DNA of 32,000 nucleotides from Moraxella nasicaprae (GTDB lineage: Bacteria; Pseudomonadota; Gammaproteobacteria; Pseudomonadales; Moraxellaceae). Position 1 is the first letter of the stretch, and each line of letters begins with the position of its first letter. The notes beneath the pieces were generated by a model. It was not told where the DNA came from, did no database searches, and was given only the letters and a program-made list of their open reading frames with translations. Shown piece after piece: positions 6,422 through 31,216 of this stretch. Both the position numbers and the translations under genes were made by a program. The stretch covers positions 630,001-662,000 of the forward strand of contig NZ_CP089977.1 of NCBI RefSeq assembly GCF_025643275.1, read 5' to 3'.

Positions 6422-6662
6422 TGTGTGACTTCTGATGAAAGATGAATGATGAACCACAACCAAAATACAGCACCATTATTCACAAAATTTGTCTCAATAA
6501 TCAATATTTTTGTTATTTTTATTGACAGATTGGTTATATTTTGTCAATATAAATCGCAATGGCTGGCTTGATGAGCAAACTTTGTTAAGTTTTGGAATCA
6601 TAATCAGATGGCTTAGTCAGAATTTGGATATATCTGCTTTTATTGTTGAAAAGGATAACTTT

Positions 6663-8324
6663 ATGAAAAGCACTCGCCTTACCCCTCTTTGCTTTGCTGT
6701 TGCACTTGGCTTAGGTACTCTACTAACCGCTTGCGGCGAAGACAAAAAGTCAGCCCAAGCCACCGATGCCAATGCTGCCGCCCCTGCTGACGCTAGTGTC
6801 GCCCAAGAAATCATCATCGGTAATGGTGCCGAACCTGAATCACTAGACCCCCATAAAGTGGCTGGCGTGCCAGAATCAAACATTTTGCGTCAAATGCTGG
6901 TTGGCTTGGTTTCTGTTGATGACAATGGCAAGACCGTTCCTGGTATGGCGACCGAATGGAGCAGTCCTGATAACAAAGTCTGGACATTCAAACTGCGTGA
7001 TGCCAAGTGGTCAAATGGCGACCCTGTGACTGCCGAAGATTTTGTATTTAGCTTCCGCCGTCTGATTGACCCGATGACCGCATCGCCTTATTCGTCATAT
7101 CTGGTGGACGCTCATTTTGCCAACGCCCAAGACATCGTGGACGGTAAAGCCAAGCCTGAAACTTTGGGCGTCAAAGCCATTGACGAAAAAACCCTAGAAA
7201 TCACTTTATCAGAGCCAGTACCTTATCTGCCTGATATGATGTTCCATACCTCTGTCAAGCCTGTCAATCCAAAAGTTGTCAAAGAGCTTGGCGATAAGTG
7301 GACTTCTGTTGGCAACTATGTGGTCAATGGTCCATACAAGCCTGTCGATTGGGTGGTCAATGAGCGTATCGTGCTAGAACGCAACCCTGAATACTTTGAC
7401 AACGACAAAACCACCATCAATAAAATCACTTTCCTAGCGATTGAGGCAGGGGCAGCAGAAGTATCTCGTTACAAGGCTCACGAGCTTGACATCACTTCTA
7501 CTGTACCGCCTGAACAGTACAAGACACTAAAAGCAGAGCTGGGTGATCAAGTACAAACCACGCCAAGCCTATGTACTTACTACTATGAGTTTAACCACAC
7601 CAAAGCACCATTTAATGATGTTCGTGTGCGTAAGGCATTGGCTTTGACTGTCGATCGTGAAGTGATTACCGACAATATCCTAGGACAAGGTCAAAAACCT
7701 GCTTATCAGTACACGCCAAAAATCACCAATGGCATCAAAGACTTTAATCCAGAATGGCAATCTTGGGATAAAGCCAAGCGTGCTGCCGAAGCCAAGCGTC
7801 TGCTGAACGAAGCTGGTTTCAACGAAAGCAATCCTTTGACCTTTGAACTGCTGCATAACACCAGCGAATCACACAAACAGATTGCTGTTGCTGTCAGCCA
7901 GTTCTGGAAAGAAAACATTGGCTTTGTTAATGTCACGCTAAACAACCAAGAATGGAAAACCTATCTTGAAACCCGTCGCCAACAAAAATTCGACATCGCT
8001 CGTGGTGGCTGGTGTGCTGACTATAACGAGCCATCGACTTTCCTAAATACCTTCAAGTCGAAGAACTCAAACAACAATGGTAAGTACAACAATCCTGAGT
8101 TTGATGCCATCTTGGCAAAAACTTTGGGTGGCGATGTTACCCCAGAACAGCGTGCAGACCTATATACCCAAGCCGAAGCGATACTGGATAAAGATGCAGC
8201 AACCATCTTTGTCTATCACTACACCGACAACCGCTTGGTTAGCCCAACCGTGAAAGGTCTGACAACAACTGACCCATTATTCCAATGGGAAGTCAAAAAC
8301 CTAAGCAAAGTCGCTGGTAACTAA
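6663..8324 (+). CDS. oppA: Oligopeptide-binding lipoprotein, OppA paralogue 1 (family 5 SBP)
   Basis: The internal ATG 6663 follows an AAGGA Shine-Dalgarno and yields a lipoprotein signal with lipobox LTAC. The family-5 substrate-binding protein body is shared with the two downstream paralogues. Confidence 0.9.
   Translation: MKSTRLTPLCFAVALGLGTLLTACGEDKKSAQATDANAAAPADASVAQEIIIGNGAEPESLDPHKVAGVPESNILRQMLVGLVSVDDNGKTVPGMATEWSSPDNKVWTFKLRDAKWSNGDPVTAEDFVFSFRRLIDPMTASPYSSYLVDAHFANAQDIVDGKAKPETLGVKAIDEKTLEITLSEPVPYLPDMMFHTSVKPVNPKVVKELGDKWTSVGNYVVNGPYKPVDWVVNERIVLERNPEYFDNDKTTINKITFLAIEAGAAEVSRYKAHELDITSTVPPEQYKTLKAELGDQVQTTPSLCTYYYEFNHTKAPFNDVRVRKALALTVDREVITDNILGQGQKPAYQYTPKITNGIKDFNPEWQSWDKAKRAAEAKRLLNEAGFNESNPLTFELLHNTSESHKQIAVAVSQFWKENIGFVNVTLNNQEWKTYLETRRQQKFDIARGGWCADYNEPSTFLNTFKSKNSNNNGKYNNPEFDAILAKTLGGDVTPEQRADLYTQAEAILDKDAATIFVYHYTDNRLVSPTVKGLTTTDPLFQWEVKNLSKVAGN
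6945..7064 (+). repeat. 120-nt near-identical tract shared with oppA paralogue 2 (8799-8918)
   Basis: Hand alignment gives 116/120 identical. All 4 differences are synonymous third positions. The flanks are much more diverged. Confidence 0.85.
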
Positions 8325-10208: not shown

Positions 10209-11843
10209 ATGTTAAATACCCAATCAAAAATCTTAGGCGTTTCTATCATTTCTGCAATGCTATTGCTGGCAGGTTGTGGTCAGGACAAGGCTGCTGACGG
10301 CAAAGGTGCAGAAGGAAAAGCTCAAAATGTCGTGCGTATCAATAATGGCGATGACCCTGAATCACTTGACCCACACATCGCCAATGATGTTGGCTCATTC
10401 AACATCATTCGCCAGATGTTCTTAGGTCTAACCACCACCGATGCTGAGGGCAAAACCATTCCAAGCCTTGCTACCGAATGGAGTAATGTGGACGAAAAAG
10501 TTTGGACATTTAAGCTAAATCCAAATGCCAAATGGTCAAATGGCGAACCATTGACCGCACACGATTTTGTGTACAGTATGCTGCGTCTGCTTGACCCAAA
10601 AACTGCATCGCACTACGGCACTTATCTTGCTGATGCCAAAGTGGTGAATGCTGCTGCATTTAACACCGGTAAAGCCAGTGCTGACAGCGTTGGTATCAAA
10701 GCGCTTGACGACCACACACTACAAATCACCCTATCAGAACCTGTACCGTATTTGGCTGAACTGTTGGCATTGCCAGTCGCTGCCCCTGTGCATAAAGCCA
10801 CCATCGAAAAATTTGGCGAAAAATGGACAGACCCTGCCAACATCGTGGTGAGCGGTGCTTATACTCTCGAAGCAAACAAAACAGGCGAAGTAATCCGCCT
10901 AAAACGCAACGAGAAGTTCTACGACAATGACAAAACCTCCATCGATACTGTGGAATTTTTGCCAATTCAAGGCATGGCTGCAATCAATCAATACAAAGCA
11001 GGCGATATTGACCTTGTGGGCGGTGTTCCGCCAGAGCAGTTTGAAGCTCTAAAAAAAGAGCTTGGCGAAGACCAAGTGCGTACCGCACCAAACTTCTGTC
11101 ACTACTATCTAGACTACAACTTCAAAAAAGCACCAACCAATGATGTTAAAGTGCGTCAAGCGTTGAATCTGACCATCGATAGAGACATCGTGACCAAAGA
11201 CATGATGAAGCGTGGCGAAATCGCCTCTTATCAGTTCACGCCTGAAATCATGCAAGGCTTAGGCAAGGTAACACCAGTATGGGCAACTCAGGATATGGCA
11301 ACTCGTGCTGCTACCGCCAAAAAGCTACTAAACGAAGCTGGTTATAACGAAAATAATCCGCTAAAAGTAGAAATTTTGTACACCACCAGCGAGACTGGCA
11401 AAATGATGACCGCTGGCGTATCAGCCATGTGGAAACAACATCTTGGTTTTGTTGATACCGCCTTGGTCAATCAAGAATGGAAAGTCATGCAGCAAATGCG
11501 TCATCAAGGCGACTTCCAAATTTCTCTGGGTGGCTGGTGTGCCGACTACAACGAACCATCGTCGTTCCTAAATATGTTCCGAGCGAACAACGACAACAAT
11601 AACGGTAAGTACAACAATCCAAAATTTGACAGCTTGCTAGATGCAACAACTGCCCCAGATGTGTCTGCTGAACAACGCAAAGACCTGTATATTCAAGCAG
11701 AACGCCTGTTGCACGAAGATGTGCCAGCTGCTTACTTGTTCTTGTCTGTTGGCTCTCACATGATTAAGCCACACCTAGACGCTCCAACACTAAAAGACCC
11801 GCTGCACAACTGGCAGGTCAAAGATTGGAAACTCAAAAAATAA
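10209..11843 (+). CDS. oppA: Oligopeptide-binding lipoprotein, OppA paralogue 3
   Basis: AAGGAG Shine-Dalgarno at 10197-10202. Signal with lipobox LAGC. Family-5 SBP body. It starts only 33 nt after paralogue 2 with no terminator between them. Confidence 0.9.
   Translation: MLNTQSKILGVSIISAMLLLAGCGQDKAADGKGAEGKAQNVVRINNGDDPESLDPHIANDVGSFNIIRQMFLGLTTTDAEGKTIPSLATEWSNVDEKVWTFKLNPNAKWSNGEPLTAHDFVYSMLRLLDPKTASHYGTYLADAKVVNAAAFNTGKASADSVGIKALDDHTLQITLSEPVPYLAELLALPVAAPVHKATIEKFGEKWTDPANIVVSGAYTLEANKTGEVIRLKRNEKFYDNDKTSIDTVEFLPIQGMAAINQYKAGDIDLVGGVPPEQFEALKKELGEDQVRTAPNFCHYYLDYNFKKAPTNDVKVRQALNLTIDRDIVTKDMMKRGEIASYQFTPEIMQGLGKVTPVWATQDMATRAATAKKLLNEAGYNENNPLKVEILYTTSETGKMMTAGVSAMWKQHLGFVDTALVNQEWKVMQQMRHQGDFQISLGGWCADYNEPSSFLNMFRANNDNNNGKYNNPKFDSLLDATTAPDVSAEQRKDLYIQAERLLHEDVPAAYLFLSVGSHMIKPHLDAPTLKDPLHNWQVKDWKLKK
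10797..10849 (+). repeat. Partner copy of the 53-nt tract in oppA paralogue 2
   Basis: See 9126-9178. Confidence 0.85.
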
Positions 11844-11861
11844 ATCTGCTTGTAATGTCAT

Positions 11862-11893
11862 GGTGTACTGTATGTTGCAGTACACCATTTTTT
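11862..11893 (+). terminator. Rho-independent terminator after oppA paralogue 3
   Basis: Perfect 9-bp stem ggtgtactg/cagtacacc with a 7-nt loop, followed by aTTTTTT. Confidence 0.8.
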
Positions 11894-12000
11894 ATGTTTA
11901 ATATATAGAAAAAAACAATAAATATACATTATTTGATTTGAAAAACCCATACAAAATAGCAATAAAATCGCCACGCTCTGTGATTTTTTCTAAAAAAGTT

Positions 12001-12009
12001 TGTTATAAT
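12001..12009 (+). promoter_or_regulatory. Candidate extended -10 (TGtTATAAT) for oppB-oppC-ATPase
   Basis: tgttataat contains a consensus TATAAT. It lies about 130 nt upstream of the oppB ATG. The -35 is weak. Confidence 0.35.
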
Positions 12010-12140
12010 ACGGCTTTGTGGTAGTTTTGTGTTTATTTGTGTATGAAAATAATATCGCACAAAACAAGCAATCATTATGAACCAATCCAAAATCATCGAC
12101 CACTCGGCAGAAGATTGACGGATGTAGTCAAGGAAGTATT

Positions 12141-13061
12141 ATGTTTAAGCTGATTGTTAAGCGTTTTTTTGAAGCAATTCCAACATTGCTGTTTTTGATC
12201 ACCATTTCATTCTTTATGATGCGTTTGGCACCAGGCAGTCCTTTTGCTGGCGAAAAGAACCTACCGCCAGCAGTGCTTGCCAATATTGAAGCCAAATACA
12301 ATCTGAATGACCCTTTGGGAATGCAGTATCTAAACTATCTATGGCAACTATTGCATGGTGATTTTGGTCCATCATTCAAATACAAAGACTACACCATCAA
12401 TGAACTTTTGATTCAAAACCTACCTGTTTCATTTGAGCTTGGTCTTTATGCGTTCATCGTTGCTGTCTTGATTGGTGTTACTATTGGTGTCATTGCTGCA
12501 CTACGCCAAAATGGATTTGTGGATTATATTTTGATGACATTGGCGATGATTGGGGTTGCTGTTCCTAGCTTTGTAAAAGCACCGCTATTGGTCTTGATTT
12601 TTGCCGTTACTCTAAAATGGCTTCCTGCTGGTGGTTGGAATGATGGTGCATTCATGAACCTGATTTTGCCTGTAACCGCCTTATCTTTAAGCTATGTAGC
12701 AGGCATTGCTCGTATCACTCGTGGCTCGATGATTGAAACCCTAAACAGTCCATTCATTCGCACTGCTCGTGCCAAAGGTCTATCAACCAGCACCATCATC
12801 ATTAAGCACGCTCTGCGTCCTGCGATGTTGCCCGTAGTATCTTATCTTGGCCCTGCTTTTGTGGGCATCATCACAGGCTCTATCATTATTGAGACTATTT
12901 TTGGTATTCCTGGCATTGGCAAGCTCTTTGTGAATGGTGCGTTGAACCGTGATTATAGCTTGGTGCTTAGCCTAACTATTTTGGTTGGTACTTTGACAAT
13001 CGTATTTAACGCCATTGTTGATATTTTGTACGCTGTCATCGATCCGAAAATCAAATACTAA
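12141..13061 (+). CDS. oppB: Oligopeptide ABC transporter permease OppB
   Basis: The N-terminus ...EAIPTLLFLITISFFMMRLAPGSPFAGEKNLPP..ANIEAKYNLNDP...HGDFGPSFKYKDY is nearly collinear with E. coli OppB. Confidence 0.95.
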   Translation: MFKLIVKRFFEAIPTLLFLITISFFMMRLAPGSPFAGEKNLPPAVLANIEAKYNLNDPLGMQYLNYLWQLLHGDFGPSFKYKDYTINELLIQNLPVSFELGLYAFIVAVLIGVTIGVIAALRQNGFVDYILMTLAMIGVAVPSFVKAPLLVLIFAVTLKWLPAGGWNDGAFMNLILPVTALSLSYVAGIARITRGSMIETLNSPFIRTARAKGLSTSTIIIKHALRPAMLPVVSYLGPAFVGIITGSIIIETIFGIPGIGKLFVNGALNRDYSLVLSLTILVGTLTIVFNAIVDILYAVIDPKIKY

Positions 13062-19546: not shown

Positions 19547-20175
19547 AGGGCAAACTCCGCCAAATCCAACACACCATTTGTCGCCTTGGTCGCCTGATGA
19601 CTGGTCATCAGTACCGCACCGCCTGCATTGGCAAATTCGACAATTCTTTGTTCCAGCTTTGCCACCATGCTCACATCTAATGCTGTTAAAGGTTCATCAA
19701 GTAGCCACAAGGGAGCGTGCGACACATTCAATGCAAATAATCTTGCCAAGCCCACACGACGCATTTGTCCTGCTGATAATTGCACGCTGGATACTTCTTG
19801 CAATCCTTGTAATCCCACCCACGCCAGCGATTCATCAATCATCTGCTCATCGGCAGTAATGCCATACAATGACAATAAAAATCTTAAATTCTGTTCTACG
19901 GTCAAATGCGTGCTAATGCCAAGCTGATGGGATACATAGACCATTTGGGCTGGCAGTTGTACCCACCCTTCAATGATAGGCAATAATCCTGCCAGCTGAG
20001 ACAATAAGGTCGTCTTGCCCAAGCCATTTTCACCAATCAAATGATAAATATCGCCTGCACGCAGTTTGGCACACACGCCCTGACACAGCACAAAGTCGCC
20101 TCGCTGTACCGCCACTTGCTCTAATTGTGCAATCCATTGACCCTTTGTTTGATAATCGCTCATCGCCCCACTCAT
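19543..20175 (-). CDS. ccmA: Haem exporter ATPase CcmA
   Basis: Walker A GENGLGKTT, signature LSAGQMRRV, Walker B LWLLDEP. About 205 aa, consistent with the CcmA size class. Confidence 0.9.
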   Translation of the reverse strand: MSGAMSDYQTKGQWIAQLEQVAVQRGDFVLCQGVCAKLRAGDIYHLIGENGLGKTTLLSQLAGLLPIIEGWVQLPAQMVYVSHQLGISTHLTVEQNLRFLLSLYGITADEQMIDESLAWVGLQGLQEVSSVQLSAGQMRRVGLARLFALNVSHAPLWLLDEPLTALDVSMVAKLEQRIVEFANAGGAVLMTSHQATKATNGVLDLAEFAL

Positions 20176-20287
20176 TGCTCATCAACCTGCTGTCATCATA
20201 AATGGTTATCATACCAAAAAATCACTCATAAAATCAGTCATCAAATGCCAATTTCTGCATAATTTTTGCAAAAAATCCTGCAAAATT

Positions 20288-20296
20288 TGTTAAAAT
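20288..20296 (+). promoter_or_regulatory. Candidate extended -10 (TGtTAAAAT) for the ybjN-like/deacetylase pair
   Basis: tgttaaaat ends 29 nt upstream of ATG 20325. Confidence 0.3.
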
Positions 20297-20324
20297 CTAC
20301 CAAAACAAGTAAGATTTTTAGGCA

Positions 20325-20942
20325 ATGAACTTCTTCAAACGACTCAAGCAAAGATTGACCAAATCCAATCGCTCCAACAGCACCCAAACTGATGAGACAA
20401 CCACTCAAATCAGCCATCGCCAATCTCTAATCAAGACCATCACTTCTTGGCTGTCTGACAAAGATTGGCATTATGAACAGCACAACAATCCCAATCTGCC
20501 ACATACTTGGCATTTTATTCTACACTTTCAGGAATTCAAGGATTGGGCGTGCGTGCTGCAAGTCAATGAACAAAATCAGCTGGTCAATCTGTACGGCGTC
20601 TTGACCCAAACCGTGCCAGAGACGCATTTTGCCACTGCCTTAGTCGCCATCAATCGCATCAATACCCGCCTACCACTGGGCAACATTGAGCTAGACACCA
20701 ACGATGGCGAACTGCGAGTACGAATCGGTTTTGATGCTGAATTTGTGCCACCCACCAACAAGCTGCTGGATATGTATCTGCATCTACTCATTCAGCTAAG
20801 TAAGGCTGCTCATGAGCTGTATGGCGACCTCTGTCAGGAGGAAGAGCCAAGCCCCATCATCTATGACTATCTGATGAATGAACCAAACGATGATGAAGTA
20901 GAGTCATCGCCATTTTTTGAACCCACTCAGCAGTATCAATAA
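20325..20942 (+). CDS. YbjN-domain-like protein (T3SS-chaperone-like fold family), tentative
   Basis: The pattern ...WL.DKDW.YE...F.L.F....W.C.LQV.E...LV.LY......VPE.....ALVAINRIN..LPLGN.ELD..DGELR.R resembles YbjN/DUF1821 proteins. The C-terminal tail is acidic. Confidence 0.55.
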   Translation: MNFFKRLKQRLTKSNRSNSTQTDETTTQISHRQSLIKTITSWLSDKDWHYEQHNNPNLPHTWHFILHFQEFKDWACVLQVNEQNQLVNLYGVLTQTVPETHFATALVAINRINTRLPLGNIELDTNDGELRVRIGFDAEFVPPTNKLLDMYLHLLIQLSKAAHELYGDLCQEEEPSPIIYDYLMNEPNDDEVESSPFFEPTQQYQ

Positions 20943-20970
20943 TATTTTGTTCGGTCAAAATCACCAAATT

Positions 20971-21888
20971 ATGATGTCTTTTAAAGTCGCCCACCACCCC
21001 CTATTTTGTTTGCCTTTGCCAGAGGGACACCGCTTTCCGATGGCAAAGTATCGTCTTTTACCACAAACGCTCTTGGCGGACGGCATCATTGCACCGTCTC
21101 AATTTTTTGTTCCAAGAATGGCGACGGTTGATGAGATTTTGACCACGCATAGTCCTGACTATTGGCAAATGCTAGATGAGCTAACCCTACCGCCCAAAGA
21201 TTGCCGTAAAATCGGACTACCAATGAGTCAAGATTTGATAGACCGTGAACGCTATGTCGTTGGGGCGACGATAGACTGTGCCAAATACGCCCTAACAGAC
21301 GGTATTAGCTTATCCACTTCTGGCGGTACACACCACGCCTTTAAAGACAGTGGCGAGGGTTTTTGTGTGCTAAATGATGTCTGCGTGGCAAGTAATGTGC
21401 TGTTAAATCAAGGACTTGTCAAAAAGATTTTAATCCTTGACCTAGATGTCCATCAAGGTAATGGCAATGCGTCCATAATGGCGGATAATGCCAATGTCTT
21501 TGTGATGAGTCTGCACGGCGAGAAAAACTATCCTTATCACAAGCCTGCCTCCGACCTAGACATTGCTTTGGCGGACGGTGTGGGCGATGATGAGTATTTG
21601 TCATTATTAAAATATCATTTACCCAAAGTGCTTGATGAGTTTAAGCCCGATTTTATCTTTTATATCGCAGGGGTGGATGTCCTTTGTGATGATAGATTGG
21701 GTAGGATAAACTTAACGATGAATGGGCTGTATGAGCGAGAACGCTATGTGATAAAAACTGCCTACCGCCGCCAAATCCCAATGACGGTGGTCATGGGCGG
21801 TGGCTATGCCCCTGATATGGGGGTGATTGTGAAGGGGCATTGTGGGGTGTTTGGGGTGGTGAGAGATTTGTACATTTATACAATTTAA
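20971..21888 (+). CDS. Histone deacetylase-family (class II-like, acetoin-utilisation/APAH-like) zinc deacetylase
   Basis: PLPEGHRFPMAKY N-terminus, GGTHHAFKDSGEGFCVLNDV, DLDVHQGNG and the YIAGVDV..DDRLG motif. ATG 20971 matches the start of homologues. Confidence 0.85.
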   Translation: MMSFKVAHHPLFCLPLPEGHRFPMAKYRLLPQTLLADGIIAPSQFFVPRMATVDEILTTHSPDYWQMLDELTLPPKDCRKIGLPMSQDLIDRERYVVGATIDCAKYALTDGISLSTSGGTHHAFKDSGEGFCVLNDVCVASNVLLNQGLVKKILILDLDVHQGNGNASIMADNANVFVMSLHGEKNYPYHKPASDLDIALADGVGDDEYLSLLKYHLPKVLDEFKPDFIFYIAGVDVLCDDRLGRINLTMNGLYERERYVIKTAYRRQIPMTVVMGGGYAPDMGVIVKGHCGVFGVVRDLYIYTI

Positions 21889-21896
21889 AAAAACCA

Positions 21897-23456
21897 TCAC
21901 TCATCTTTTGTTAAATCCAGACCAATAGATTTCAACTCCTCAAACCCCAATTTTATCAAAGCTGTACCTTCACTTATCAACCCATCATCACCTTTAGCAA
22001 CCCCTAAAATAGTTTTAAGAATTCCAATTTTATGGGTTATTAAAGAAAAAGAATTATCCAATTCATATATTTTAGTTAGAATCTCTATGGATTCCTCCAG
22101 TCTTTCTAAGTATAAATTATTCAATTTATCATGACCTTTTGGTAGAATTTTTAATATTTCTGTTTTGAATAAGAGTTTTGCGACGTCATTATTAATTTCT
22201 GCTAGTTTTTTCTCTATTAACTCTATTTCTTTATCCGTAAGTTCTCTACTCAAAATATACCCAGCAACAATATCAATAGTAAAAAGAACAATATTACTCT
22301 CAATTCTTAGAGATAATATATTTTGAAACTCTTCAATTTCAGCTTTAGGGGGTTTTTGGTCAAATATTTCTGTGTCACATTCATAAATATCCCATAGATT
22401 TGATGTCATTTCTAAATAATATCTTGTAGCGAATAGCCTCTTAAATTCCTCATAGTTGTTGTAAGGAAAGTAGGGATTTAAATCTAGGGATTTAACTATA
22501 TAGTTTATAGCAAGGTCGTAGTTGTTTTTTTCAAATTCTAAAATTGCCTTATATCTATAATAAGAACACTCAAAATTATTTATTAACATAACAACATTTC
22601 GTGATGTTATGTTTTTTTCCTGAGTAATTTGCTTAACTTCATTTATTAATTTAATATTATCTTGTAGGGAGAAATTTAATGAAGATAAGTCTTTAAATCT
22701 TAAAAACATATCATTAAAAGATTGTGTTATAACCATCAGATTTATTTTAATAGCAAGGTTAATTTTTTCTCTTTCATTTAAATTATTGTTATCCAAAACT
22801 TCCTGAATGGCATCTATATTTTCCTTAAAACTAGCAGATGTATCAAGGTTATCTAAATTTAGATAACTCTTATAAATAATATCCTCTTGATTAATAAAAA
22901 ATGAAAAACCAAATACAATATTATCTTTAATGGTTTTTTTAAAAAAACTATTAATGCTAATTAGATTTTTGGGTATAATATAGAATTCTGGAATATCTGC
23001 TATTATTATACGCAAAATATTCATTTTGTTTAGATAACTATGCTGATTAAACTTTTCTATTTCCTCATGAATTATTAAATCTATTCTTTCAGTTTGGAAG
23101 TTTTTATCAAGGTAGATTTTTTCATTTTCGTAAAAAGTACCAAAATAAATTAATGCAGGAATTTTGGGTGAAAATTTTAAATGAAAAACAAGTGAAAATA
23201 GCACGACTACGCTTATTGATAAAAGTATCGCTAAATCAAGTGGTATATTAAAAAAATAATATAAAGAAAATGTACCAAACATAGTTAGTAACCAATGTTG
23301 GTATTTTAAAAAAACAAAACACAGAGAAGCCTTAAAAAATTTTGAAAGGCGTGGATTTAAAAATGATGCACCAATGTATGCAAGTAATGATGCAATAATA
23401 CCTGCTATATAATTATTGGTTAAAATTTCTCTGAAGTCAAACCAAATTGTATCCAT
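21897..23456 (-). CDS. Orphan 519-aa membrane-anchored helical/TPR-like protein on a very low-GC insertion
   Basis: It is the only long ORF in about 1.6 kb of roughly 17-25% GC DNA (hand counts). It has three N-terminal hydrophobic segments, and the remainder is K/N/E/I/L-rich. One segment fits the TPR consensus. No catalytic motif was recognised and there is no Shine-Dalgarno. Confidence 0.75.
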   Translation of the reverse strand: MDTIWFDFREILTNNYIAGIIASLLAYIGASFLNPRLSKFFKASLCFVFLKYQHWLLTMFGTFSLYYFFNIPLDLAILLSISVVVLFSLVFHLKFSPKIPALIYFGTFYENEKIYLDKNFQTERIDLIIHEEIEKFNQHSYLNKMNILRIIIADIPEFYIIPKNLISINSFFKKTIKDNIVFGFSFFINQEDIIYKSYLNLDNLDTSASFKENIDAIQEVLDNNNLNEREKINLAIKINLMVITQSFNDMFLRFKDLSSLNFSLQDNIKLINEVKQITQEKNITSRNVVMLINNFECSYYRYKAILEFEKNNYDLAINYIVKSLDLNPYFPYNNYEEFKRLFATRYYLEMTSNLWDIYECDTEIFDQKPPKAEIEEFQNILSLRIESNIVLFTIDIVAGYILSRELTDKEIELIEKKLAEINNDVAKLLFKTEILKILPKGHDKLNNLYLERLEESIEILTKIYELDNSFSLITHKIGILKTILGVAKGDDGLISEGTALIKLGFEELKSIGLDLTKDE

Positions 23457-23470
23457 ATTTAAATCATATT

Positions 23471-23510
23471 AAAAATTGGTAGTTTCCATTAAAAAAATAG
23501 AAACTACCAA
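23471..23510 (-). terminator. Rho-independent terminator of valS
   Basis: Perfect 11-bp stem ttggtagtttc (23476-23486) / gaaactaccaa (23500-23510) with a 13-nt loop. On the minus strand the stem is followed by TTTTT. It begins 8 nt after the valS stop. Confidence 0.7.
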
Positions 23511-23518
23511 AAACACCA

Positions 23519-26404
23519 TCATAACCCCTCAATCTCCCCCATACTCTCCTTCACCTTCCCAATCTGCCCTTCAAGCTCACTTAACTTCTCTCGTTCAGCC
23601 GAAACAACCGCAGGTGGTGCTTTGGCAACAAAACTTTCATTGGCAAGTTTATTTTTAATTTGCTCATATTGTTTGGTGAGTTTTTCTAGCTCTTTATTAA
23701 GACGAGCCAGCTCCACCGCAGGGTCAATCAAGCCTTTCATCGGCACATAAACGACCGCTTGCCCAATCACGCCAGATGATGATAATGGGGCTTTTTCATC
23801 ATTTGCCAAAAATGTTAGGCTCTCCACCTTAGCAAGGGCTTTAAATAAGGGTTCAATTCTTTGAATTTGTGTTTTTTCGCCCTCATTGATGTTTTGTAAT
23901 AAGACAGGCAATAATTTGGCATTGCCCAAATTCATCTCACCACGAATATTTCGCACCGCCCCAATTAAGCCTTGTAGCCAATGCATATCATTTTCAGCAG
24001 TTTCGTTAATTCGTTCAGGGTTTGCAACTGGATATGGGGCAAGCATTATGGTTTCACCACCACGCCCAATCATCACAGCGATTTTTGTCCATATTTCTTC
24101 TGTGATAAATGGCATAATCGGGTGAGTAAGCCTTAAAGCCGTTTCTAATACCGACAGTAGCACATAGCGTACTTGGGCTTTTCTATCATCACTGATAGTC
24201 TCATCATTTAATACAGGTTTGGTCAGCTCCACATACCAATCGCAATATTCATTCCAAATAAAATCATAAATACTTTGACTTGCCAAATCCAAACGATAAG
24301 TGTCAAATGCCAGATTGACCGCCTGTTCACATTTTTGTAGACGGCTTATTATCCATTGTTCTGGTAATTCCCAAAGTTCAGGTTTTGCCATTTGGTGAAT
24401 GTCTTTACCGTCCACATTCATTAAAACAAATCTTGTGGCATTATAAATCTTATTACAAAAATTCCGATAACCCTCTACTCGTTTTAAATCAAATTTAATA
24501 TCTCGCCCTGTACTTGCCAACGCACAAAAGGTAAATCTAAGTGCATCTGTTCCAAAGGCGTTAATGCCGTTTTCAAATTCCTTGCGAGTGGCTTTTTCAA
24601 TTTTGGGAGCGTCTTGGGGTTTCATTAGCCCTGTGGTGCGTTTGGCAACCAAACTTTCTAAATCAATGCCGTCAATCAAATCCAGTGGGTCTAGTACATT
24701 GCCTTTTGATTTAGACATTTTCGCCCCCTCAGAGTCTCGTACTAAGCCGTGTACATAGACGGTTTTAAAGGGGACTTGCGGTTTGCCATTTTTGTCTTTA
24801 ACAAAATGCAAGGTCATCATAATCATTCTGGCAACCCAAAAGAATATGATGTCAAAGCCAGTTACCAATACCGATGTAGGGTGAAAAGTTTGTAAAATGG
24901 CATTGTCAAAATCTTCATTAGTCCCTTTCCAGCCAAGCGTTGAAAAAGTCCAAAGGGCTGATGAAAACCAAGTATCCAAAACATCATCATCTTGGCGTAA
25001 AGCAATATCGGAGAGATTATATTTTTCACGCACTTCGTTTTCACTGCGACCAACATAAAAATTGCCATTATCATCATACCACGCAGGAATACGATGACCC
25101 CACCAGAGTTGACGGCTAATACACCAATCTTTAATATCACGCATCCACGCCATATACATATTGGTATATTGTTCTGGCACAAATTTAATATCGCCATTTT
25201 GTACCGCATCTATGGCAGGTTTGGCAAGCTCATCAATTTTGACATACCATTGGTCGGTAAGTAACGGCTCAATGACTGTACCACTTCTATCGCCTTTGGG
25301 GGTTTTTAATTGGTGTGGTTCTATTTTTTCTAGCCAGTTTTCATTTTGGGCTTGTTCCACCACTTTTTTACGGGCGATATAACGGTCTAATCCTTGATAT
25401 TGTGTTGGTACGCTGATTAAATTAGGCGTTTTTTGTTCTGCATTTTCAAATAATTCAAATTCGGTTAAGATATTGGCATTAACATCAAAAATATTAATCA
25501 GCGGTAAATTGTGCCGACTACCCACTTCATAATCATTAAAATCGTGAGCAGGGGTAATCTTAACACAGCCTGTGCCAAAGTCTTTTTCCACATAATCATC
25601 AGCAACAATCGGTATTTCACGATTTGTAATCGGCAAAATCACCGTTTTACCAATCAAATGAGCATAGCGTTCATCATCAGGGTGAACCGCAACCGCCGTG
25701 TCGCCAAGCAAGGTTTCTGGGCGTGTCGTGGCAACGGTCAGATAATTTTTACCGTCTTTGGTGCTTAAATTGGCGTCCGCAAAATAATAATTAAAATGCC
25801 ATAAATTGCCCTGTTCATCGTGGTTTTCCACTTCTAGGTCGGATAAAGCGGTATGCAGTTTGGTATCCCAATTGACAAGGCGTTTTTTACGATAAATCAA
25901 TCCCTCATCATACAGGCGGACAAAGACTTCTTTGACCACGTCCGATAACTCATCGTCCATTGTAAAGCGTTCACGAGACCAATCCACCGATGACCCCAAA
26001 CGGCGAATTTGACGAGTGATATTACCGCCCGACAGCTCTTTCCATTCCCATACTTTTTCTAAGAATTTTTCACGCCCCAAATCGTGGCGAGAGATGCCCT
26101 GTTGTCCAAGCTGGCGTTCTACGACCATTTGTGTGGCAATGCCTGCGTGGTCAGTACCGCCTTGCCATAGCGTGTTGTAGCCTTTCATACGATGATAGCG
26201 AGTCAGCGCATCCATAATGGCGTTGTTAAAGCCGTGCCCCATATGGAGCGAGCCTGTCACATTGGGCGGTGGTAGGGCGATGGAGAAGGATTTGTCTTTG
26301 TCCAAAGTGGGCTTAAAATAGCCGTTACTTTCCCATTTTTCATACATGCCCGATTCGATTTCGGCTGGATTATAGTTTGGGGAAAGTTGATCTAAAATAC
26401 TCAT
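23519..26404 (-). CDS. valS: Valyl-tRNA synthetase
   Basis: [14 protein letters not shown] (HIGH region), KMSKSKGN (KMSKS), the editing-domain motif [17 protein letters not shown] and a C-terminal coiled coil. ATG 26404 is preceded by GGAG. The track's longer start at 26491 is a read-in. Confidence 0.95.
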
Positions 26405-26445
26405 AAACACTCCGATTTTTTCAATAACATTCACTAATATTAACG

Positions 26446-26454
26446 ATTCTACCA
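26446..26454 (-). promoter_or_regulatory. Candidate extended -10 (TGgTAGAAT) for valS
   Basis: The reverse complement of attctacca is tggtagaat. It ends 41 nt upstream of the valS ATG. Confidence 0.3.
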
Positions 26455-26546
26455 CCAATCCATTTGTCATATCAGCAAGCATCAAACACATGACAATCAG
26501 ATCAATCCATCAATCAACCGATGGCTTTTTGGTAAAAATTTTTTGC

Positions 26547-28646: not shown

Positions 28647-29888
28647 TCAATCTTCCAACAAAACCGCATCTCTTAGCGTATTTAGTCGCTCCACCATACC
28701 ATGACTCATCGCATCGATGGTTTGGCATTCTCGTTCGGAAATTGAATTTGGATTTTGTAGATTTTCTAATGTTGTATAAGGAGCAAGCTGTTTTTTTGCC
28801 TGTGCATCAAACAGCGTCAGCATGGGCAAACGGCGACGCTTAGCGATGCTAAATGCTGATGATGCTTGTTCAGCACTGCTGGCAATCGTCGTCATTGGCA
28901 AAGCAAAACGCCCAAGTTCACGGTGCTTATCATACACCACTTGATTGACCATCAGCACCAGTTGTGCCAGCATCAAGCTTGCTGTTGCAACTTTGGCATG
29001 TTCATTTTGGGCGGTCAAGGTGACTGTCGCCCCTTGCTCATCAAACTCACCAATTTTGGCAACCGACACGCCCGCCACAAATGCAGACGCCAACAATTTA
29101 TCAACGGTTTTTTCTAACAGCTGATTGCACAAAGCAAAATATGCCTGTTTGCCGTCATAGCCTACTGCATCTAGCAAACGGTGTGGGTCATTAAAACAAA
29201 TCTGCACCACATAGCCATCAACATCATCTCTCTCATCTTCAAATGTCTCGTCTGATGGCTCAAAAACACCCTCATTGTCCTGCATTGATGATGGCGTTGG
29301 TGCTTGCTCATCGTTTGTTGATGGTTTATCTTGTAACTGATAAGGAAGCAGTCCTTGTGTGAGCAATCTGGCTCTGACATCGGTGGCGATTTGGTTTTTT
29401 AGTGCATCAGTTGGGCGAGCCAAATAGCCATACAACACAAATAATGCCAAATGCAATACCGCTGTCGCTAACAAAAACAGCCAATGCTCCGACAGTACAA
29501 TCGCATAACTGATGGGTTTGGTTTCAATCACCACAGACCCCAACACCTTATCGCCAGACGCTACGGTCTGATTGCGGGTACGATAACCACCTGCTCCCTC
29601 TTCGCCCTTAGGTACAATTAGGTTATTTTTGGCATCGTACACACCCACAAAGCCAATCTGCGGCTCTTTCATATAGCCATCGGCAATCAGACTGGCACTG
29701 ACCGTGTCATTATTTGCCAATGCCACCGTCATACTTGTGCCTAATTCTGCCACCAAAGATTCCGCCACTTGGCGGTATTGCTCACTGGCTTGGCGTTCAT
29801 AACTGATTGAAAAAAATAACAAATGCAATAATGCACTAAGTAAAACAATCAAAAAGAACAAATTTTTTTTGGGTGCAGAATAAGTCAT
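28647..29888 (-). CDS. Smp/YtjB(AhpA)-like membrane protein with a ~250-aa C-terminal cytoplasmic extension
   Basis: The first ~165 aa form a TM - periplasmic domain - TM architecture. By eye they resemble E. coli Smp/YtjB (GFVGVYDAKNNLIVPKGEE vs LDAGVYDEQGDLIARSGE; LGSVVIETK vs LGYLRLTLD). The gene is divergent from serB, as in E. coli. Confidence 0.75.
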   Translation of the reverse strand: MTYSAPKKNLFFLIVLLSALLHLLFFSISYERQASEQYRQVAESLVAELGTSMTVALANNDTVSASLIADGYMKEPQIGFVGVYDAKNNLIVPKGEEGAGGYRTRNQTVASGDKVLGSVVIETKPISYAIVLSEHWLFLLATAVLHLALFVLYGYLARPTDALKNQIATDVRARLLTQGLLPYQLQDKPSTNDEQAPTPSSMQDNEGVFEPSDETFEDERDDVDGYVVQICFNDPHRLLDAVGYDGKQAYFALCNQLLEKTVDKLLASAFVAGVSVAKIGEFDEQGATVTLTAQNEHAKVATASLMLAQLVLMVNQVVYDKHRELGRFALPMTTIASSAEQASSAFSIAKRRRLPMLTLFDAQAKKQLAPYTTLENLQNPNSISERECQTIDAMSHGMVERLNTLRDAVLLED

Positions 29889-30070
29889 GAATACCGCTTT
29901 ACATCAAAGGTCAAAGGTCGATTGGCTCATTACGAGCTGTATTTTGTAAAAAATACTTAAATTGTGCCATTTTTAACGAAGTTGGGCAATAGTTTTTATG
30001 CTTTTTTATCAAGTTTTTATCACAAAAATCATCAAGCCTGACAAATCTTACATAAAAACCACGATAAATC

Positions 30071-30100
30071 TTGTACAAATTCCCAAAAAGGTGCTAGTAT
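30071..30100 (+). promoter_or_regulatory. Candidate promoter for serB (TTGTAC-18-TGcTAGTAT)
   Basis: -35 ttgtac at 30071-30076, 18-nt spacer containing TG at 30092-30093, -10 tagtat at 30095-30100. Confidence 0.4.
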
Positions 30101-30178
30101 GATGGGGTTTTAACAAAAGATTTTTGATGTACTTGATTGAACATCAATACATCGATTTAACACGATTTTGGGTAAGCA

Positions 30179-31216
30179 ATGATGCATCATTATACCTTAC
30201 AACACGGCATTCAAGATTGGCAAAACGCCCTACAAGCACTTCATTTAGCCCCTGAATCTGACTGGCAATCATTGCCACTGTTTGGGATTGTGTTGGTTGG
30301 CGATGTGCCAATCCAGTCTGTGCAATCATGGGCTGATGAGCATCGTTGGCAACTGGTGCCACTGACTACTCAAAAATCGACGGTTGATGTGGTTAATAGT
30401 TTAGATAATATTCACAATACCAGTGTGTATCGCTGTGTGATTTTTTCAAACGCCATCATCGACCAGCCAGTCGATGAGCTGCCACGCCTCATCAAGGCAC
30501 AACTCACATCACGCATCAATCAAGCAATGGATATTCACATTTTACCCATTGATAAACTGCTTAGACCACATCGATTGGCGTGCTTTGACATGGATTCAAC
30601 GCTCATTGAGCAAGAAGTTATCGTGGAGCTGGCTCGCTACTGCCACATAGACCAAGAGGTTAGCCACATTACCGAATCAGCGATGCGTGGCGAGATTGAT
30701 TTTGCGACCAGTTTTAGTCGGCGAGTGGCACTCTTGGCAGGGGCAGACCAATCCATCATCGAGCAAATCATCGCCAATAACATCACCTTTCAATCTGGGG
30801 CGTTGGCAACCATCCAATCCTTAAAGGCACTAGGCTATCATACCGTGCTGGTTTCAGGTGGTTTTGAGCCTTTTGCCAAGCATGTTGCCCATACGCTAGG
30901 CATAGATGAATATCACGCCAATCCTTTGGATATTGCTGAGGGCAAATTGACTGGCAAAGTCAGCCTACCCATCTTGGACGGTCATCAAAAAGCCTGCATT
31001 GTCCAACATATCGCCAAACAACTTGGCATCACAAACGACCAAATCATCTGCATTGGCGATGGAGCGAATGATTTACCAATGATGTCCATCAGTGATATTG
31101 GCATTGCCTATCACGCCAAACCCATCGTCCAAGAACAAGCAACGCTTGCCATCAATCACACAGGGCTTGAAGGCGTGCTATACGCTCTTGGACATCAGTT
31201 AGTCTCATCATCTTAA
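30179..31216 (+). CDS. serB: Phosphoserine phosphatase SerB
   Basis: HAD motifs FDMDSTLI (DxDST), SGGF and GDGANDLPM, plus an N-terminal regulatory domain as in gammaproteobacterial SerB. Confidence 0.9.
   Translation: MMHHYTLQHGIQDWQNALQALHLAPESDWQSLPLFGIVLVGDVPIQSVQSWADEHRWQLVPLTTQKSTVDVVNSLDNIHNTSVYRCVIFSNAIIDQPVDELPRLIKAQLTSRINQAMDIHILPIDKLLRPHRLACFDMDSTLIEQEVIVELARYCHIDQEVSHITESAMRGEIDFATSFSRRVALLAGADQSIIEQIIANNITFQSGALATIQSLKALGYHTVLVSGGFEPFAKHVAHTLGIDEYHANPLDIAEGKLTGKVSLPILDGHQKACIVQHIAKQLGITNDQIICIGDGANDLPMMSISDIGIAYHAKPIVQEQATLAINHTGLEGVLYALGHQLVSSS

What the first reader, a model, noticed from the sequence alone, without database searches (positions are those of the whole stretch)
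21862..23475. Single-gene, very low-GC insertion between a deacetylase gene and valS, encoding a 519-aa membrane-anchored helical-repeat protein of no recognisable family
Hand G+C counts on 60-nt lines give 15/60 (22501-22560) and 10/60 (22921-22980) inside the ORF. Outside it they give 31/60 (21301-21360, deacetylase gene) and 34/60 (23701-23760, valS 3-prime end). The shift is abrupt on both sides, at about 21862 and about 23475, so the compositionally foreign block is ~1.6 kb and holds exactly one ORF. The product has three hydrophobic stretches in the first ~95 aa: NYIAGIIASLLAYIGASFL, LCFVFLKYQHWLLTMFGTFSLYYFF and LAILLSISVVVLFSLVFHL. The remaining ~420 aa are K/N/E/I/L-rich and probably all-helical, with one segment fitting the TPR consensus (YYRYKAILEFEKNNYDLAINYIVKSLDLNPYF). 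I see no Walker A, HExxH, nuclease, TIR or other catalytic signature. There is no integrase, transposase or tRNA next to it. A solitary foreign membrane-anchored repeat protein wedged between conserved housekeeping genes is the pattern of strain-variable cargo such as single-gene anti-phage or abortive-infection effectors. That functional reading is speculation.
Basis: partly seen in the sequence, partly recalled or inferred. Interest (0 to 1): 0.72.

Follow-up and report, generated by a model that had tools for sequence, protein, structure and literature searches.

The report
Orphan membrane protein in defence hotspot
A foreign, AT-rich single gene for a membrane-anchored helical-repeat protein of an unnamed family sits in a Moraxella chromosomal slot that holds restriction enzymes, Zorya and other anti-phage systems in related species, which makes it a good but untested candidate for a new anti-phage gene.

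Summary
A 519-aa ORF (window 21897-23456, minus strand) has GC 0.259, against 0.445 +/- 0.021 for equal-sized windows elsewhere (z = -8.8), and GC3 of 0.20. It lies between an HDAC-family deacetylase and valS.

Twelve other Moraxella genomes keep these two genes as convergent neighbours. The space between them ranges from 92 bp (empty) to 5.5 kb. It holds different low-GC cargo in each: type II/IIG R-M systems, a methyl-directed restriction enzyme, Zorya II, PDC-S18, PDC-S32/AbiJ-like, PDC-M16B and unknowns. No integrase or transposase is present. This is a defence hotspot of the "minimal mobile element" type.

The protein matches no Pfam, NCBIfam, PADLOC or PHROGs family, but it is not an orphan. 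Eight close relatives exist (41-84% identity), and about 58 distant cluster representatives, mostly from Bacteroidota. The gene is under purifying selection (dN/dS about 0.2). It is AT-rich relative to its flanks in every locus. It occurs in at least three core-gene junctions, including nrdA|nrdB.

Four of seven distant relatives on long contigs lie beside strong PADLOC hits (Olokun, PD-Lambda-1, Avs4 with PDC-S49, PDC-S18 with Mrr).

Architecture: about 3 N-terminal TM helices, a small alpha/beta domain and a TPR-like solenoid, with no catalytic motif. A defence role is likely. It rests only on genomic association.

The parts
20917..21888 (+). HDAC-family deacetylase gene, the conserved left flank of the hotspot. 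Its last ~8 codons (21862-21888) differ in every species and belong to the variable block.
   Evidence: PDB phmmer 8e-74 to histone-deacetylase-domain proteins. 60-93% identical orthologues in Moraxella loci L020-L038. Homology ends after GGGGTGTTTGGGGTGG.
21862..23518 (.). Variable (foreign) block: everything between the end of cross-species homology in the deacetylase and the valS stop codon. 1657 bp, GC 0.256.
   Evidence: Flank alignment of 13 loci. GC statistics. The slot holds from 92 bp to 5464 bp of unrelated cargo in other Moraxella.
21897..23456 (-). 519-aa ORF, the only gene in the block. Its stop codon lies 8 bp from the convergent deacetylase stop.
   Evidence: 100% match to a Moraxella nasicaprae hypothetical protein and 8 relatives at 41-84% identity. 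dN/dS 0.18-0.26.
23178..23417 (-). Residues 14-93: the N-terminal hydrophobic region, about 3 transmembrane helices. Topology is inferred as N-terminus out, C-terminus in.
   Evidence: Hydropathy segments in 42 of 43 family members. AF2 helices 15-30, 35-50, 52-69 and 73-93. Loop 33-44 carries +3 charge; the positive-inside rule is applied as an inference.
22842..23174 (-). Residues 95-205: a small alpha/beta domain (four strands plus helices) of unknown fold family.
   Evidence: AF2 full-length model: E101-109, H112-139, E149-152, H165-177, E181-188, E193-199, pLDDT mostly 72-89. No invariant polar residue in the wide family. No PDB sequence relative.
21921..22841 (-). Residues 206-512: an all-helical, TPR-like solenoid of about 13 helices, and the most conserved part of the family.
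   Evidence: AF2 model. Foldseek finds only generic TPR, 14-3-3 and helical-repeat matches, best E = 0.012. The family profile hits consensus-TPR proteins in PDB. Conserved residues listed.
22470..22562 (-).
   Evidence: Pfam TPR_8/TPR_2 at E about 0.005, 17 bits, below the gathering score. 11 of 43 family members match TPR_1, best E = 3.6e-9.
23476..23510 (-). Terminator-like hairpin after valS, ending 20 nt upstream of the ORF's ATG. It lies inside the variable block and is shared with relative L011.
   Evidence: Terminator scan: 15 pairs, 4 of them G-C, followed by a T-tract. The same hairpin is in L011 and a related one in L012; other species have different hairpins.
23519..26491 (-). valS (valyl-tRNA synthetase), the conserved right flank of the hotspot.
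   Evidence: PDB phmmer 2.6e-207 to ValRS. 67-95% identical orthologues convergent with the deacetylase in 12 Moraxella loci.

Best explanation
The block is a horizontally acquired single-gene cassette in a chromosomal cargo hotspot of the genus Moraxella, namely the junction between the convergent 3' ends of an HDAC-family deacetylase gene and valS.

Shown: the slot is empty in one genome. In the other genomes it holds unrelated AT-rich cargo, mostly anti-phage systems. It has no mobility genes.

Inferred: cargo is exchanged by homologous recombination in the conserved flanks after DNA uptake, as in a Neisseria-type minimal mobile element or a core defence hotspot.

Shown or predicted: the gene encodes a conserved, selectively constrained protein of an unnamed family found in Moraxellaceae and Bacteroidota. 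It has about 3 N-terminal transmembrane helices, then a small alpha/beta domain and a TPR-like solenoid, probably cytoplasmic. No catalytic motif is present.

Inferred from genomic association only: it is a stand-alone anti-phage or anti-MGE protein. The solenoid would bind a phage or host protein. The signal would then act at the inner membrane through the TM bundle, either by permeabilising or depolarising it (abortive infection) or by blocking entry or assembly (exclusion).

Not settled: expression. It may depend on read-through of the weak valS terminator.
For: Composition: ORF GC 0.259 against 0.445 +/- 0.021, z = -8.8; GC3 0.20.

Hotspot: 12 Moraxella loci keep deacetylase and valS convergent, with gaps of 92 bp (empty, L028) to 5464 bp and gap GC of 0.25-0.37.

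Cargo in the slot:
- two type II methyltransferases (2e-101, 5e-95)
- a methyl-directed restriction enzyme (1e-113)
- a type IIG R-M enzyme (2e-239) with a specificity subunit and PDC-S18 (1e-129)
- ZorA2, ZorB2 and ZorE (5e-77, 3e-89, 7e-77)
- a type II restriction enzyme/AAA protein with PDC-M16B
- PDC-S32, which is AbiJ_NTD4 plus DUF7014 in Pfam
- R.HinP1I with a C5 methylase

Mobility of the family: relatives occupy valS|deacetylase (window, L011, L012), nrdA|nrdB (L001, L002, L014, L106) and a third junction (L013). The gene is more AT-rich than its flanks in all 12 loci examined.

A real gene: dN/dS 0.18-0.26. The close family shows full-length conservation. There are 58 distant representatives, most full-length.

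Association with defence genes: OloA/OloB (2e-48, 1e-123) plus RES and HNH in L100. PD-Lambda-1 (1e-128) in L101/L102. PDC-S49 (6e-53) and Avs4 (3e-146) directly flanking in L104. AbiEii, PDC-S18 (6e-86) and Mrr in L015.

Architecture: AF2 pLDDT 77.7, pTM 0.73. N-terminal hydrophobic helices in 42 of 43 members.

Frameworks: core defence hotspots (PMC10250203) and minimal mobile elements (PMC3082526).
Against: - No match to any of 5027 PADLOC models for the protein or for 43 relatives.
- No recognisable effector, nuclease, NTPase or signalling domain.
- Two of seven distant contexts (L018, L103) show no defence neighbours, and one (L105) has only a weak one.
- The most conserved residues lie in the solenoid, while the TM region is the least conserved. 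That fits a membrane anchor as well as a pore-forming effector. A conserved binding surface is also unlike the fast-evolving sensors of many defence proteins.
- No sigma-70-like promoter or Shine-Dalgarno sequence lies between the valS terminator and the ATG, so expression is unverified.
- No DdaA motif is nearby.
- Hotspots also carry non-defence cargo, such as the NA37-like genes in L038.
Confidence: 0.5

Rival explanations
1. The gene is hotspot cargo but is not an immune gene. It would be an accessory inner-membrane scaffold or regulator, for example a TPR adaptor for envelope, secretion or stress signalling, that travels with defence islands.
For: The only detectable similarity is to generic TPR scaffolds. 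The conserved charged residues in the solenoid suggest a conserved partner rather than a variable phage target. Contexts L018 and L103 lack defence neighbours. Membrane-anchored TPR proteins can be regulators, as with the transmembrane anti-sigma DdvA that controls a CBASS-CRISPR island (PMC11506125, title and abstract seen).
Against: No partner gene is conserved next to it; the neighbours differ in every locus. The distribution is patchy, the gene is always AT-rich and sits in single-gene islands, and it repeatedly lies next to defence systems. That is the pattern on which defence genes have been discovered. No ECF sigma gene is adjacent in the window.
Confidence: 0.25
2. The gene serves a mobile element, for example superinfection exclusion or element maintenance. 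It would have been left in the Moraxella slot as a stranded remnant of an integrative element or prophage.
For: In Bacteroidota the relatives lie inside integrative elements. These carry a tyrosine integrase, HTH_17, AAA_25/DnaB_C, BT4734-like_N or a resolvase (L100, L101/L102, L104; an Arm-DNA-bind_5 fragment in L103).
Against: No copy was found in 2.9 million viral contigs, in GenBank phages or plasmids, or in BFVD. In Moraxellaceae the gene is a clean single-gene insert with no element remnants, at three different core junctions. Purifying selection is maintained. This reading overlaps with defence, since exclusion is a form of defence.
Confidence: 0.15
3. It is not a functional gene: a chance ORF or decaying pseudogene in AT-rich spacer DNA.
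For: No canonical promoter or Shine-Dalgarno sequence lies upstream. The composition is very biased.
Against: An uninterrupted 519-codon ORF in 26% GC DNA is very unlikely by chance. Nine relatives at 41-84% identity align over the full length with about 95 invariant columns. dN/dS is 0.18-0.26. AF2 gives a confident fold.
Confidence: 0.02
4. It is an ordinary, vertically inherited housekeeping gene of Moraxella whose composition is merely unusual.
For: Orthologues at 84% and 68% identity occupy the same valS|deacetylase slot in two other samples (L011, L012).
Against: It is absent from the slot in all 12 genome-sequenced Moraxella species and MAGs examined, including M. oblonga (deacetylase 93% and valS 95% identical). 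Close family members lie at other junctions. Only 9 clusters exist among 5.8 billion proteins.
Confidence: 0.01

Closest known systems
Core defence hotspots (cDHS1/cDHS2 of Pseudomonas aeruginosa; Johnson et al. 2023, PMC10250203)
   Same: A fixed chromosomal site flanked by conserved core genes. Its content varies between isolates or species. It is rich in known anti-phage systems mixed with genes of unknown function that are candidate new systems.
   Different: The slot here is much smaller (0.09-5.5 kb, against medians of 6 and 26 kb) and usually holds a single system. It was compared between species of a genus, not between strains of one species. No MGE markers were seen. The site itself (valS|HDAC-like deacetylase in Moraxella) was not found described in the literature searched.
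Minimal mobile elements of Neisseria (Saunders & Snyder 2002; Snyder et al. 2007; defined in PMC3082526)
   Same: Two conserved genes with different whole-gene cassettes between them in different genomes. No integrase or transposase. The cassettes are low-GC. Cargo is presumed to be exchanged by homologous recombination in the flanks in a naturally transformable organism. Homology stops exactly at the ends of the flanking genes.
   Different: Recombination-mediated exchange was not demonstrated here. Natural competence of M. nasicaprae is assumed from what is known of the genus (M. catarrhalis competence: PMC6384898, found).
Single-gene abortive-infection or exclusion proteins with membrane anchors (lactococcal Abi genes such as AbiZ; RexB-type and CBASS/retron TM effectors). 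Comparison from general knowledge, not tested here.
   Same: A stand-alone, AT-rich, horizontally acquired gene with no homology to enzymes, N-terminal TM helices and sporadic distribution. The proposed logic is that a cytoplasmic sensor is coupled to a membrane-level effect.
   Different: No sequence or fold relationship to any of them was found (PADLOC 0 hits). Known TM effectors are usually short or are paired with a separate sensor or signal generator. Here a roughly 420-aa alpha/beta plus TPR-like domain is fused to the TM region.
TPR/helical-repeat sensor domains of bacterial immune proteins (e.g. Avs/STAND C-terminal sensors) and generic TPR scaffolds (OGT, Tom70, MamA, PilF)
   Same: A solenoid of paired helices with TPR-like turns (NPxFPY at residues 327-332..ELDxxF at 465-470). 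Foldseek and the profile searches find only this class.
   Different: There is no NTPase or effector domain. This protein scores below the Pfam TPR gathering thresholds. TM-scores to PDB TPR proteins are low (TMq 0.1-0.23).

Membership tests
Core defence hotspot / minimal mobile element (the locus) | The same pair of conserved core genes flanks the site across genomes | tested here: met
   Deacetylase and valS are convergent neighbours in 12 Moraxella loci plus the window, L011 and L012.
Core defence hotspot / minimal mobile element (the locus) | Different whole-gene cassettes occupy the site in different genomes, and an empty site exists | tested here: met
   Gap lengths run from 92 bp (L028, empty) to 5464 bp, with unrelated ORF sets. 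No homologue of the 519-aa protein is present in any of them.
Core defence hotspot / minimal mobile element (the locus) | The cargo is enriched in known anti-phage systems | tested here: met
   R-M type II and IIG, a methyl-directed restriction enzyme, Zorya II, PDC-S18, PDC-S32/AbiJ-like, PDC-M16B and HinP1I R-M in 7 of 11 occupied slots at strong E-values.
Core defence hotspot / minimal mobile element (the locus) | No self-mobility genes; cassette exchange occurs by homologous recombination in the flanks | tested here: inconclusive
   No integrase or transposase was seen in the window block or in the Moraxella gaps, and homology ends sharply at the gene ends. The recombination mechanism itself cannot be tested with these tools.
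Known anti-phage defence families (PADLOC-DB v2.0.0) | A significant match to a defence-protein HMM | tested here: not met
   0 families for the protein and 0 of 43 for the wider family. DefenseFinder and later PADLOC releases were not available.
Candidate defence gene by guilt-by-association (the criterion of Doron et al. 2018, recalled from general knowledge) | A majority of family members are encoded near known defence genes | tested here: inconclusive
   4 of 7 distant contexts have strong PADLOC neighbours, 1 is weak and 2 have none. The window copy sits in a defence slot. L106 sits beside a RelE-like toxin-antitoxin pair. The sample is too small for statistics.
Tetratricopeptide repeat proteins (Pfam TPR_1/TPR_2/TPR_8) | The score reaches Pfam's gathering threshold | tested here: not met
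   17.3 and 17.1 bits against cut-offs of 25.7 and 27. Relatives do better: TPR_1 in 11 of 43, best E = 3.6e-9. The predicted fold is TPR-like. The protein is TPR-like but is not filed as a Pfam TPR member.
Transmembrane anti-sigma/TPR regulators of defence islands (DdvA type, PMC11506125) | A cognate ECF sigma factor gene is adjacent | tested here: not met
   The neighbours are the deacetylase and valS. No sigma-factor ORF lies in the block. No anti-sigma family hit in Pfam or NCBIfam.
Phage- or plasmid-borne gene | Copies are found on viral or plasmid sequences | tested here: not met
   None in IMG/VR, GenBank phages, PLSDB plasmids or BFVD structures at E <= 1e-3.

The most novel reading that the evidence does not exclude
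The 519-aa protein would be the founding member of a previously undescribed single-protein anti-phage immune family with a TM bundle, a novel alpha/beta domain and a TPR-like solenoid. The family is shared between Bacteroidota and Moraxellaceae. It moves as a naked one-gene cassette between core-gene junctions (valS|deacetylase, nrdA|nrdB and others) and acts at the inner membrane without any enzymatic domain. The Moraxella valS|deacetylase slot would then be a compact, one-system-at-a-time discovery site. It holds several more unknown candidates: the M. equi 530-aa, M. caprae 417-aa, M. lacunata 543-aa and L038 408-aa proteins.
Probability: 0.4. Interest if true: 0.7.

Novelty: new variant of a known kind. 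Interest (0 to 1): 0.55.

Why it matters
If the gene is protective, it adds a new enzyme-free, membrane-anchored immune family. Its sensor is a helical-repeat domain fused directly to its presumed membrane effector, which would be a simple system for studying how recognition is coupled to membrane action.

Independently of the gene's function, the analysis defines a small and cleanly bounded defence hotspot in Moraxella, a genus of veterinary and human respiratory and ocular pathogens. The slot usually holds a single system and several uncharacterised single genes, which makes it a cheap source of candidates. Its cargo probably turns over by recombination alone.

The locus also bears on phage-therapy and strain-typing work in Moraxella, because closely related lineages differ at this site.

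Tried and rejected
- Curated libraries. Pfam, NCBIfam, PADLOC and PHROGs scans of the protein gave only sub-threshold TPR hits. Pfam and PADLOC scans of 43 relatives added nothing beyond TPR.
- Word-indexed protein search with the wide alignment A2 returned only the same 9 close relatives, so that search was wasted.
- Genome-collection scan with A2 failed because no stretch was conserved enough. The deacetylase was used as the query instead.
- Domain-only AF2 model of residues 95-215 had pLDDT 50, too poor for a fold search. A domain profile against PDB sequences found nothing below E = 0.39.
- No copies in viral contigs, GenBank phages or plasmids.
- The M. equi 530-aa cargo was tested as a remote homologue: hhalign probability 0.85%, so it is unrelated.
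- Rfam scan of 20000-24500 found nothing.
- Promoter scan found no sigma-70-like site between the valS terminator and the ATG. All hits lie inside the AT-rich ORF and are near the shuffle expectation (16 found against 11.6 +/- 3.3).
- DdaA activator motif CGWCA-N5-TGWCG (PMC12392091). One 1-mismatch hit at 27777, below the chance expectation, and none near the gene.
- Literature searches for a described Moraxella hotspot or a TM-TPR defence family found nothing specific.
- Target-site duplications or flanking repeats were considered. Inspection of the junction alignments showed none, only divergence starting at the gene ends. No dedicated repeat search was run.
Full report
**1. The observation**

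The window contains a 519-codon ORF at 21897-23456 on the minus strand. 300-nt windows inside it have GC 0.21-0.29, and both flanks have 0.43-0.50. The ORF GC is 0.259. Windows of 1560 bp elsewhere in the 32 kb average 0.445 +/- 0.021, so z = -8.8. GC3 is 0.198, against 0.38-0.53 for the six neighbouring genes tested.

The left neighbour is an HDAC-family deacetylase (20917-21888, plus strand; PDB phmmer 8e-74). The right neighbour is valS (23519-26491, minus strand; 2.6e-207 to ValRS). The deacetylase and ORF stop codons are convergent and 8 bp apart.

Between the valS stop and the ORF's ATG there are 62 bp. They contain a terminator-like hairpin at 23476-23510. No tRNA, integrase or transposase is adjacent, and Rfam finds nothing.

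**2. The junction is a cargo hotspot**

I searched one genome per species with the deacetylase and retrieved 19 Moraxellaceae loci. In 12 of them both deacetylase and valS are present, in the same convergent arrangement. The distance between them varies widely:

- 92 bp in a Moraxella MAG (L028). This is an empty site with a single hairpin.
- 1.3-1.9 kb in five or six species.
- 2.6-5.5 kb in the remaining species.

Gap GC is always 0.25-0.37, against 0.41-0.53 for the flanks. None of the gaps encodes a relative of the 519-aa protein (tblastn with all family proteins held).

The cargo:

| Genome | Content of the slot |
|---|---|
| M. oblonga | two type II methyltransferases (2e-101, 5e-95) plus small genes |
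| M. oculi | a DpnI-like methyl-directed restriction enzyme (1e-113) with methylase fragments |
| MAG S24M_Sa_18 | type IIG R-M enzyme (2e-239), specificity subunit, PDC-S18 (1e-129) |
| M. pluranimalium | complete Zorya II: ZorA2 5e-77, ZorB2 3e-89, ZorE 7e-77 |
| M. porci | AAA-type restriction enzyme (1e-33) and PDC-M16B (7e-19) |
| MAG S24M_Sa_47 | PDC-S32, which is AbiJ_NTD4 plus DUF7014 in Pfam |
| M. equi, M. caprae, M. lacunata, MAG S24M_Sa_22 | unknown or weakly matching genes |

I aligned the flanks of all loci. Homology ends just after ...GGGGTGTTTGGGGTGG, at window position ~21861, so the last ~8 codons of the deacetylase differ in every species. On the other side it ends exactly at the valS stop codon.

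The site meets the published definition of a minimal mobile element: two conserved genes with different whole-gene cassettes between them, incorporated by homologous recombination (PMC3082526). It also resembles a core defence hotspot (PMC10250203). The recombination step is an inference.

**3. The gene is real and belongs to an unnamed, mobile family**

The protein is 100% identical to a hypothetical protein of Moraxella nasicaprae. Only eight other clusters among 5.8 billion proteins are close relatives (41-84% identity), all from short metagenome contigs. They align over the full length with about 95 invariant columns. dN/dS is 0.18-0.26.

The contexts of the close relatives differ:

- L011 (84% identity) and L012 (68%) are in the same valS|deacetylase slot.
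- L001, L002, L014 and the 135-kb contig L106 carry the gene between nrdA and nrdB. L106 also has a YefM/RelE-like pair next to it.
- L013 is at a third junction.

An exhaustive HMMER search of 1.84 billion representatives found 58 hits, 37 of them below 1e-10. Most are full-length proteins of 500-535 aa at 21-30% identity. The named ones come from Bacteroidota: Paludibacter and two Chitinophaga.

In all 12 loci examined the gene is more AT-rich than its surroundings, by 3 to 18 GC points. No copy was found on viral contigs, GenBank phages or plasmids.

**4. Association with defence genes**

Seven distant relatives sit on long contigs.

- Four lie next to strong PADLOC hits.
  - L100: OloA and OloB immediately upstream (2e-48, 1e-123), RES and HNH downstream.
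  - L101/L102: PD-Lambda-1 (1e-128) two genes away, inside an integrative element.
  - L104: PDC-S49 (6e-53) directly upstream and Avs4 (3e-146) directly downstream.
  - L015: AbiEii, PDC-S18 (6e-86) and an Mrr-type enzyme.
- One has a weaker neighbour (L105: DUF4365, Aga-like at 8e-9).
- Two have none (L018, L103).

No partner gene is conserved across contexts, so the protein probably acts alone.

**5. The protein**

AlphaFold2 on the nine-sequence alignment gives pLDDT 77.7 and pTM 0.73. The model has four parts:

- helices at 15-30, 35-50, 52-69 and 73-93, the hydrophobic region;
- a small alpha/beta unit at about 100-200;
- about 13 helices from 208 to 510.

N-terminal hydrophobic segments occur in 42 of 43 family members. 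The +3 charge of loop 33-44 and the acidic N-terminus suggest an N-out, C-in topology with the large domain in the cytoplasm. That is an inference from the positive-inside rule.

Only TPR-type similarity is detectable:

- Pfam TPR_8/TPR_2 at 17 bits, below threshold;
- TPR_1 in 11 of 43 relatives;
- generic TPR, 14-3-3 and designed repeats by Foldseek, best E = 0.012;
- consensus-TPR chains with the family profile.

The alpha/beta domain has no invariant polar residue in the wide family and no PDB relative. Modelled alone, it folds poorly.

Conservation is highest in the solenoid: Q245, D249, R301, N327-P328-Y329-x-P331-Y332, Y335, K339, K436, G441, R452, D467, F470, G512. It is lowest in the TM region, apart from W55. 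No catalytic signature was found.

**6. How it most likely works**

Shown: this is a foreign single-gene cassette in a recombination-type defence hotspot. It encodes a constrained, membrane-anchored helical-repeat protein whose relatives travel with defence systems.

Inferred: it is a stand-alone anti-phage or anti-MGE protein. The solenoid binds a protein ligand, and the output is exerted at the inner membrane, either as abortive permeabilisation or as exclusion.

I put about 0.95 on the hotspot-cargo statement, about 0.5 on a defence function and about 0.2 on the specific membrane-effector mechanism. The poorly conserved TM region fits a simple anchor equally well.

Expression is unresolved. 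The ATG lies 20 nt after the valS terminator's T-tract. No sigma-70-like promoter or Shine-Dalgarno sequence is evident, and no DdaA site is present. Read-through of the weak hairpin (4 G-C pairs out of 15) is possible.

**7. Rivals**

- A non-immune accessory scaffold or regulator (0.25).
- A gene that serves a mobile element, now stranded in the slot (0.15). This overlaps with defence.
- A spurious ORF (0.02; refuted).
- An ordinary housekeeping gene (0.01; refuted).

**8. Novelty and verdict**

Hotspots and single-gene membrane-anchored defence proteins are both known kinds. This particular slot and this protein family were not found in the libraries or literature searched. I rate it a new variant of a known kind, with interest 0.55.

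It is a well-supported and cheaply testable candidate, and it brings a useful hotspot with it. It is not a conceptual surprise, and the function is still based on association.

Noticed in passing
L031:6917-8509 (-), L023:6913-8166 (-), L021:6949-8580 (-), L038:7007-8233 (-): Other uncharacterised cargo occupies the same valS|deacetylase slot. M. equi has a 530-aa protein (GC 0.25, no Pfam or PADLOC hit). M. caprae has a 417-aa protein (weak HEC-07 hit, 6e-8). M. lacunata has a 543-aa P-loop protein (weak mad8 hit, 1e-5). A MAG has a 408-aa unknown next to a split NA37-like pair. All are further defence candidates.
   Followed up: partly
[not shown]
   Followed up: partly
window 20917-21888; loci L039-L099: Outside Moraxella, nearly all of the next-best relatives of the deacetylase are Bacteroidota (45-51% identity), not other Gammaproteobacteria. 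The distant relatives of the 519-aa family are also mostly Bacteroidota. This may reflect cross-phylum gene flow.
   Followed up: no
L106:9990-10517: A YefM-like antitoxin and a RelE-like toxin (the toxin gives a weak PADLOC hit, CARF_RelE at 1e-5) sit between nrdA and nrdB, next to the 41%-identical relative. The nrdA|nrdB intergenic region in that organism is therefore another accessory-gene landing site.
   Followed up: partly
L001:2120-2200, L002 and L014 3' ends: REP-like inverted repeats (GTAGGGTGCGCCCCGCGCACC ... GGTGCGCGAGGCACACCCTAC) lie just downstream of the relative in the nrdA context.
   Followed up: no
L104:3143-11525: PDC-S49 (6e-53), the family member P0021 and Avs4 (3e-146) are packed on one strand with gaps of 18 and 9 nt, inside an element with an integrase, HTH_17 and AAA_25.
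   Followed up: partly
L025:6902-8735: The M. oculi slot holds an intact DpnI-like methyl-directed restriction enzyme, with methyltransferase-like ORF fragments on both sides (sequence resemblance only, not scanned). It looks like a decayed or replaced R-M system.
   Followed up: no
window ~2451-2900, 6351-6700, 11751-12200, 29801-30250: Four other short patches have GC below 0.33 in 300-bp windows. All are much shorter than the 1.6-kb block and were not examined.
   Followed up: no
window 20917-20942 and 26400-26491: The mechanically called starts of the deacetylase (TTG, overlapping the upstream 205-aa ORF by 26 nt) and of valS are probably too far upstream. Cross-species and PDB homology begins at about residue 18-23 of the deacetylase and about residue 21-37 of valS.
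   Followed up: no
L011:64-105: The called start of relative P0002 adds 14 residues that run into the valS terminator hairpin. The Met aligned with the window's ATG is the likely true start.
   Followed up: partly
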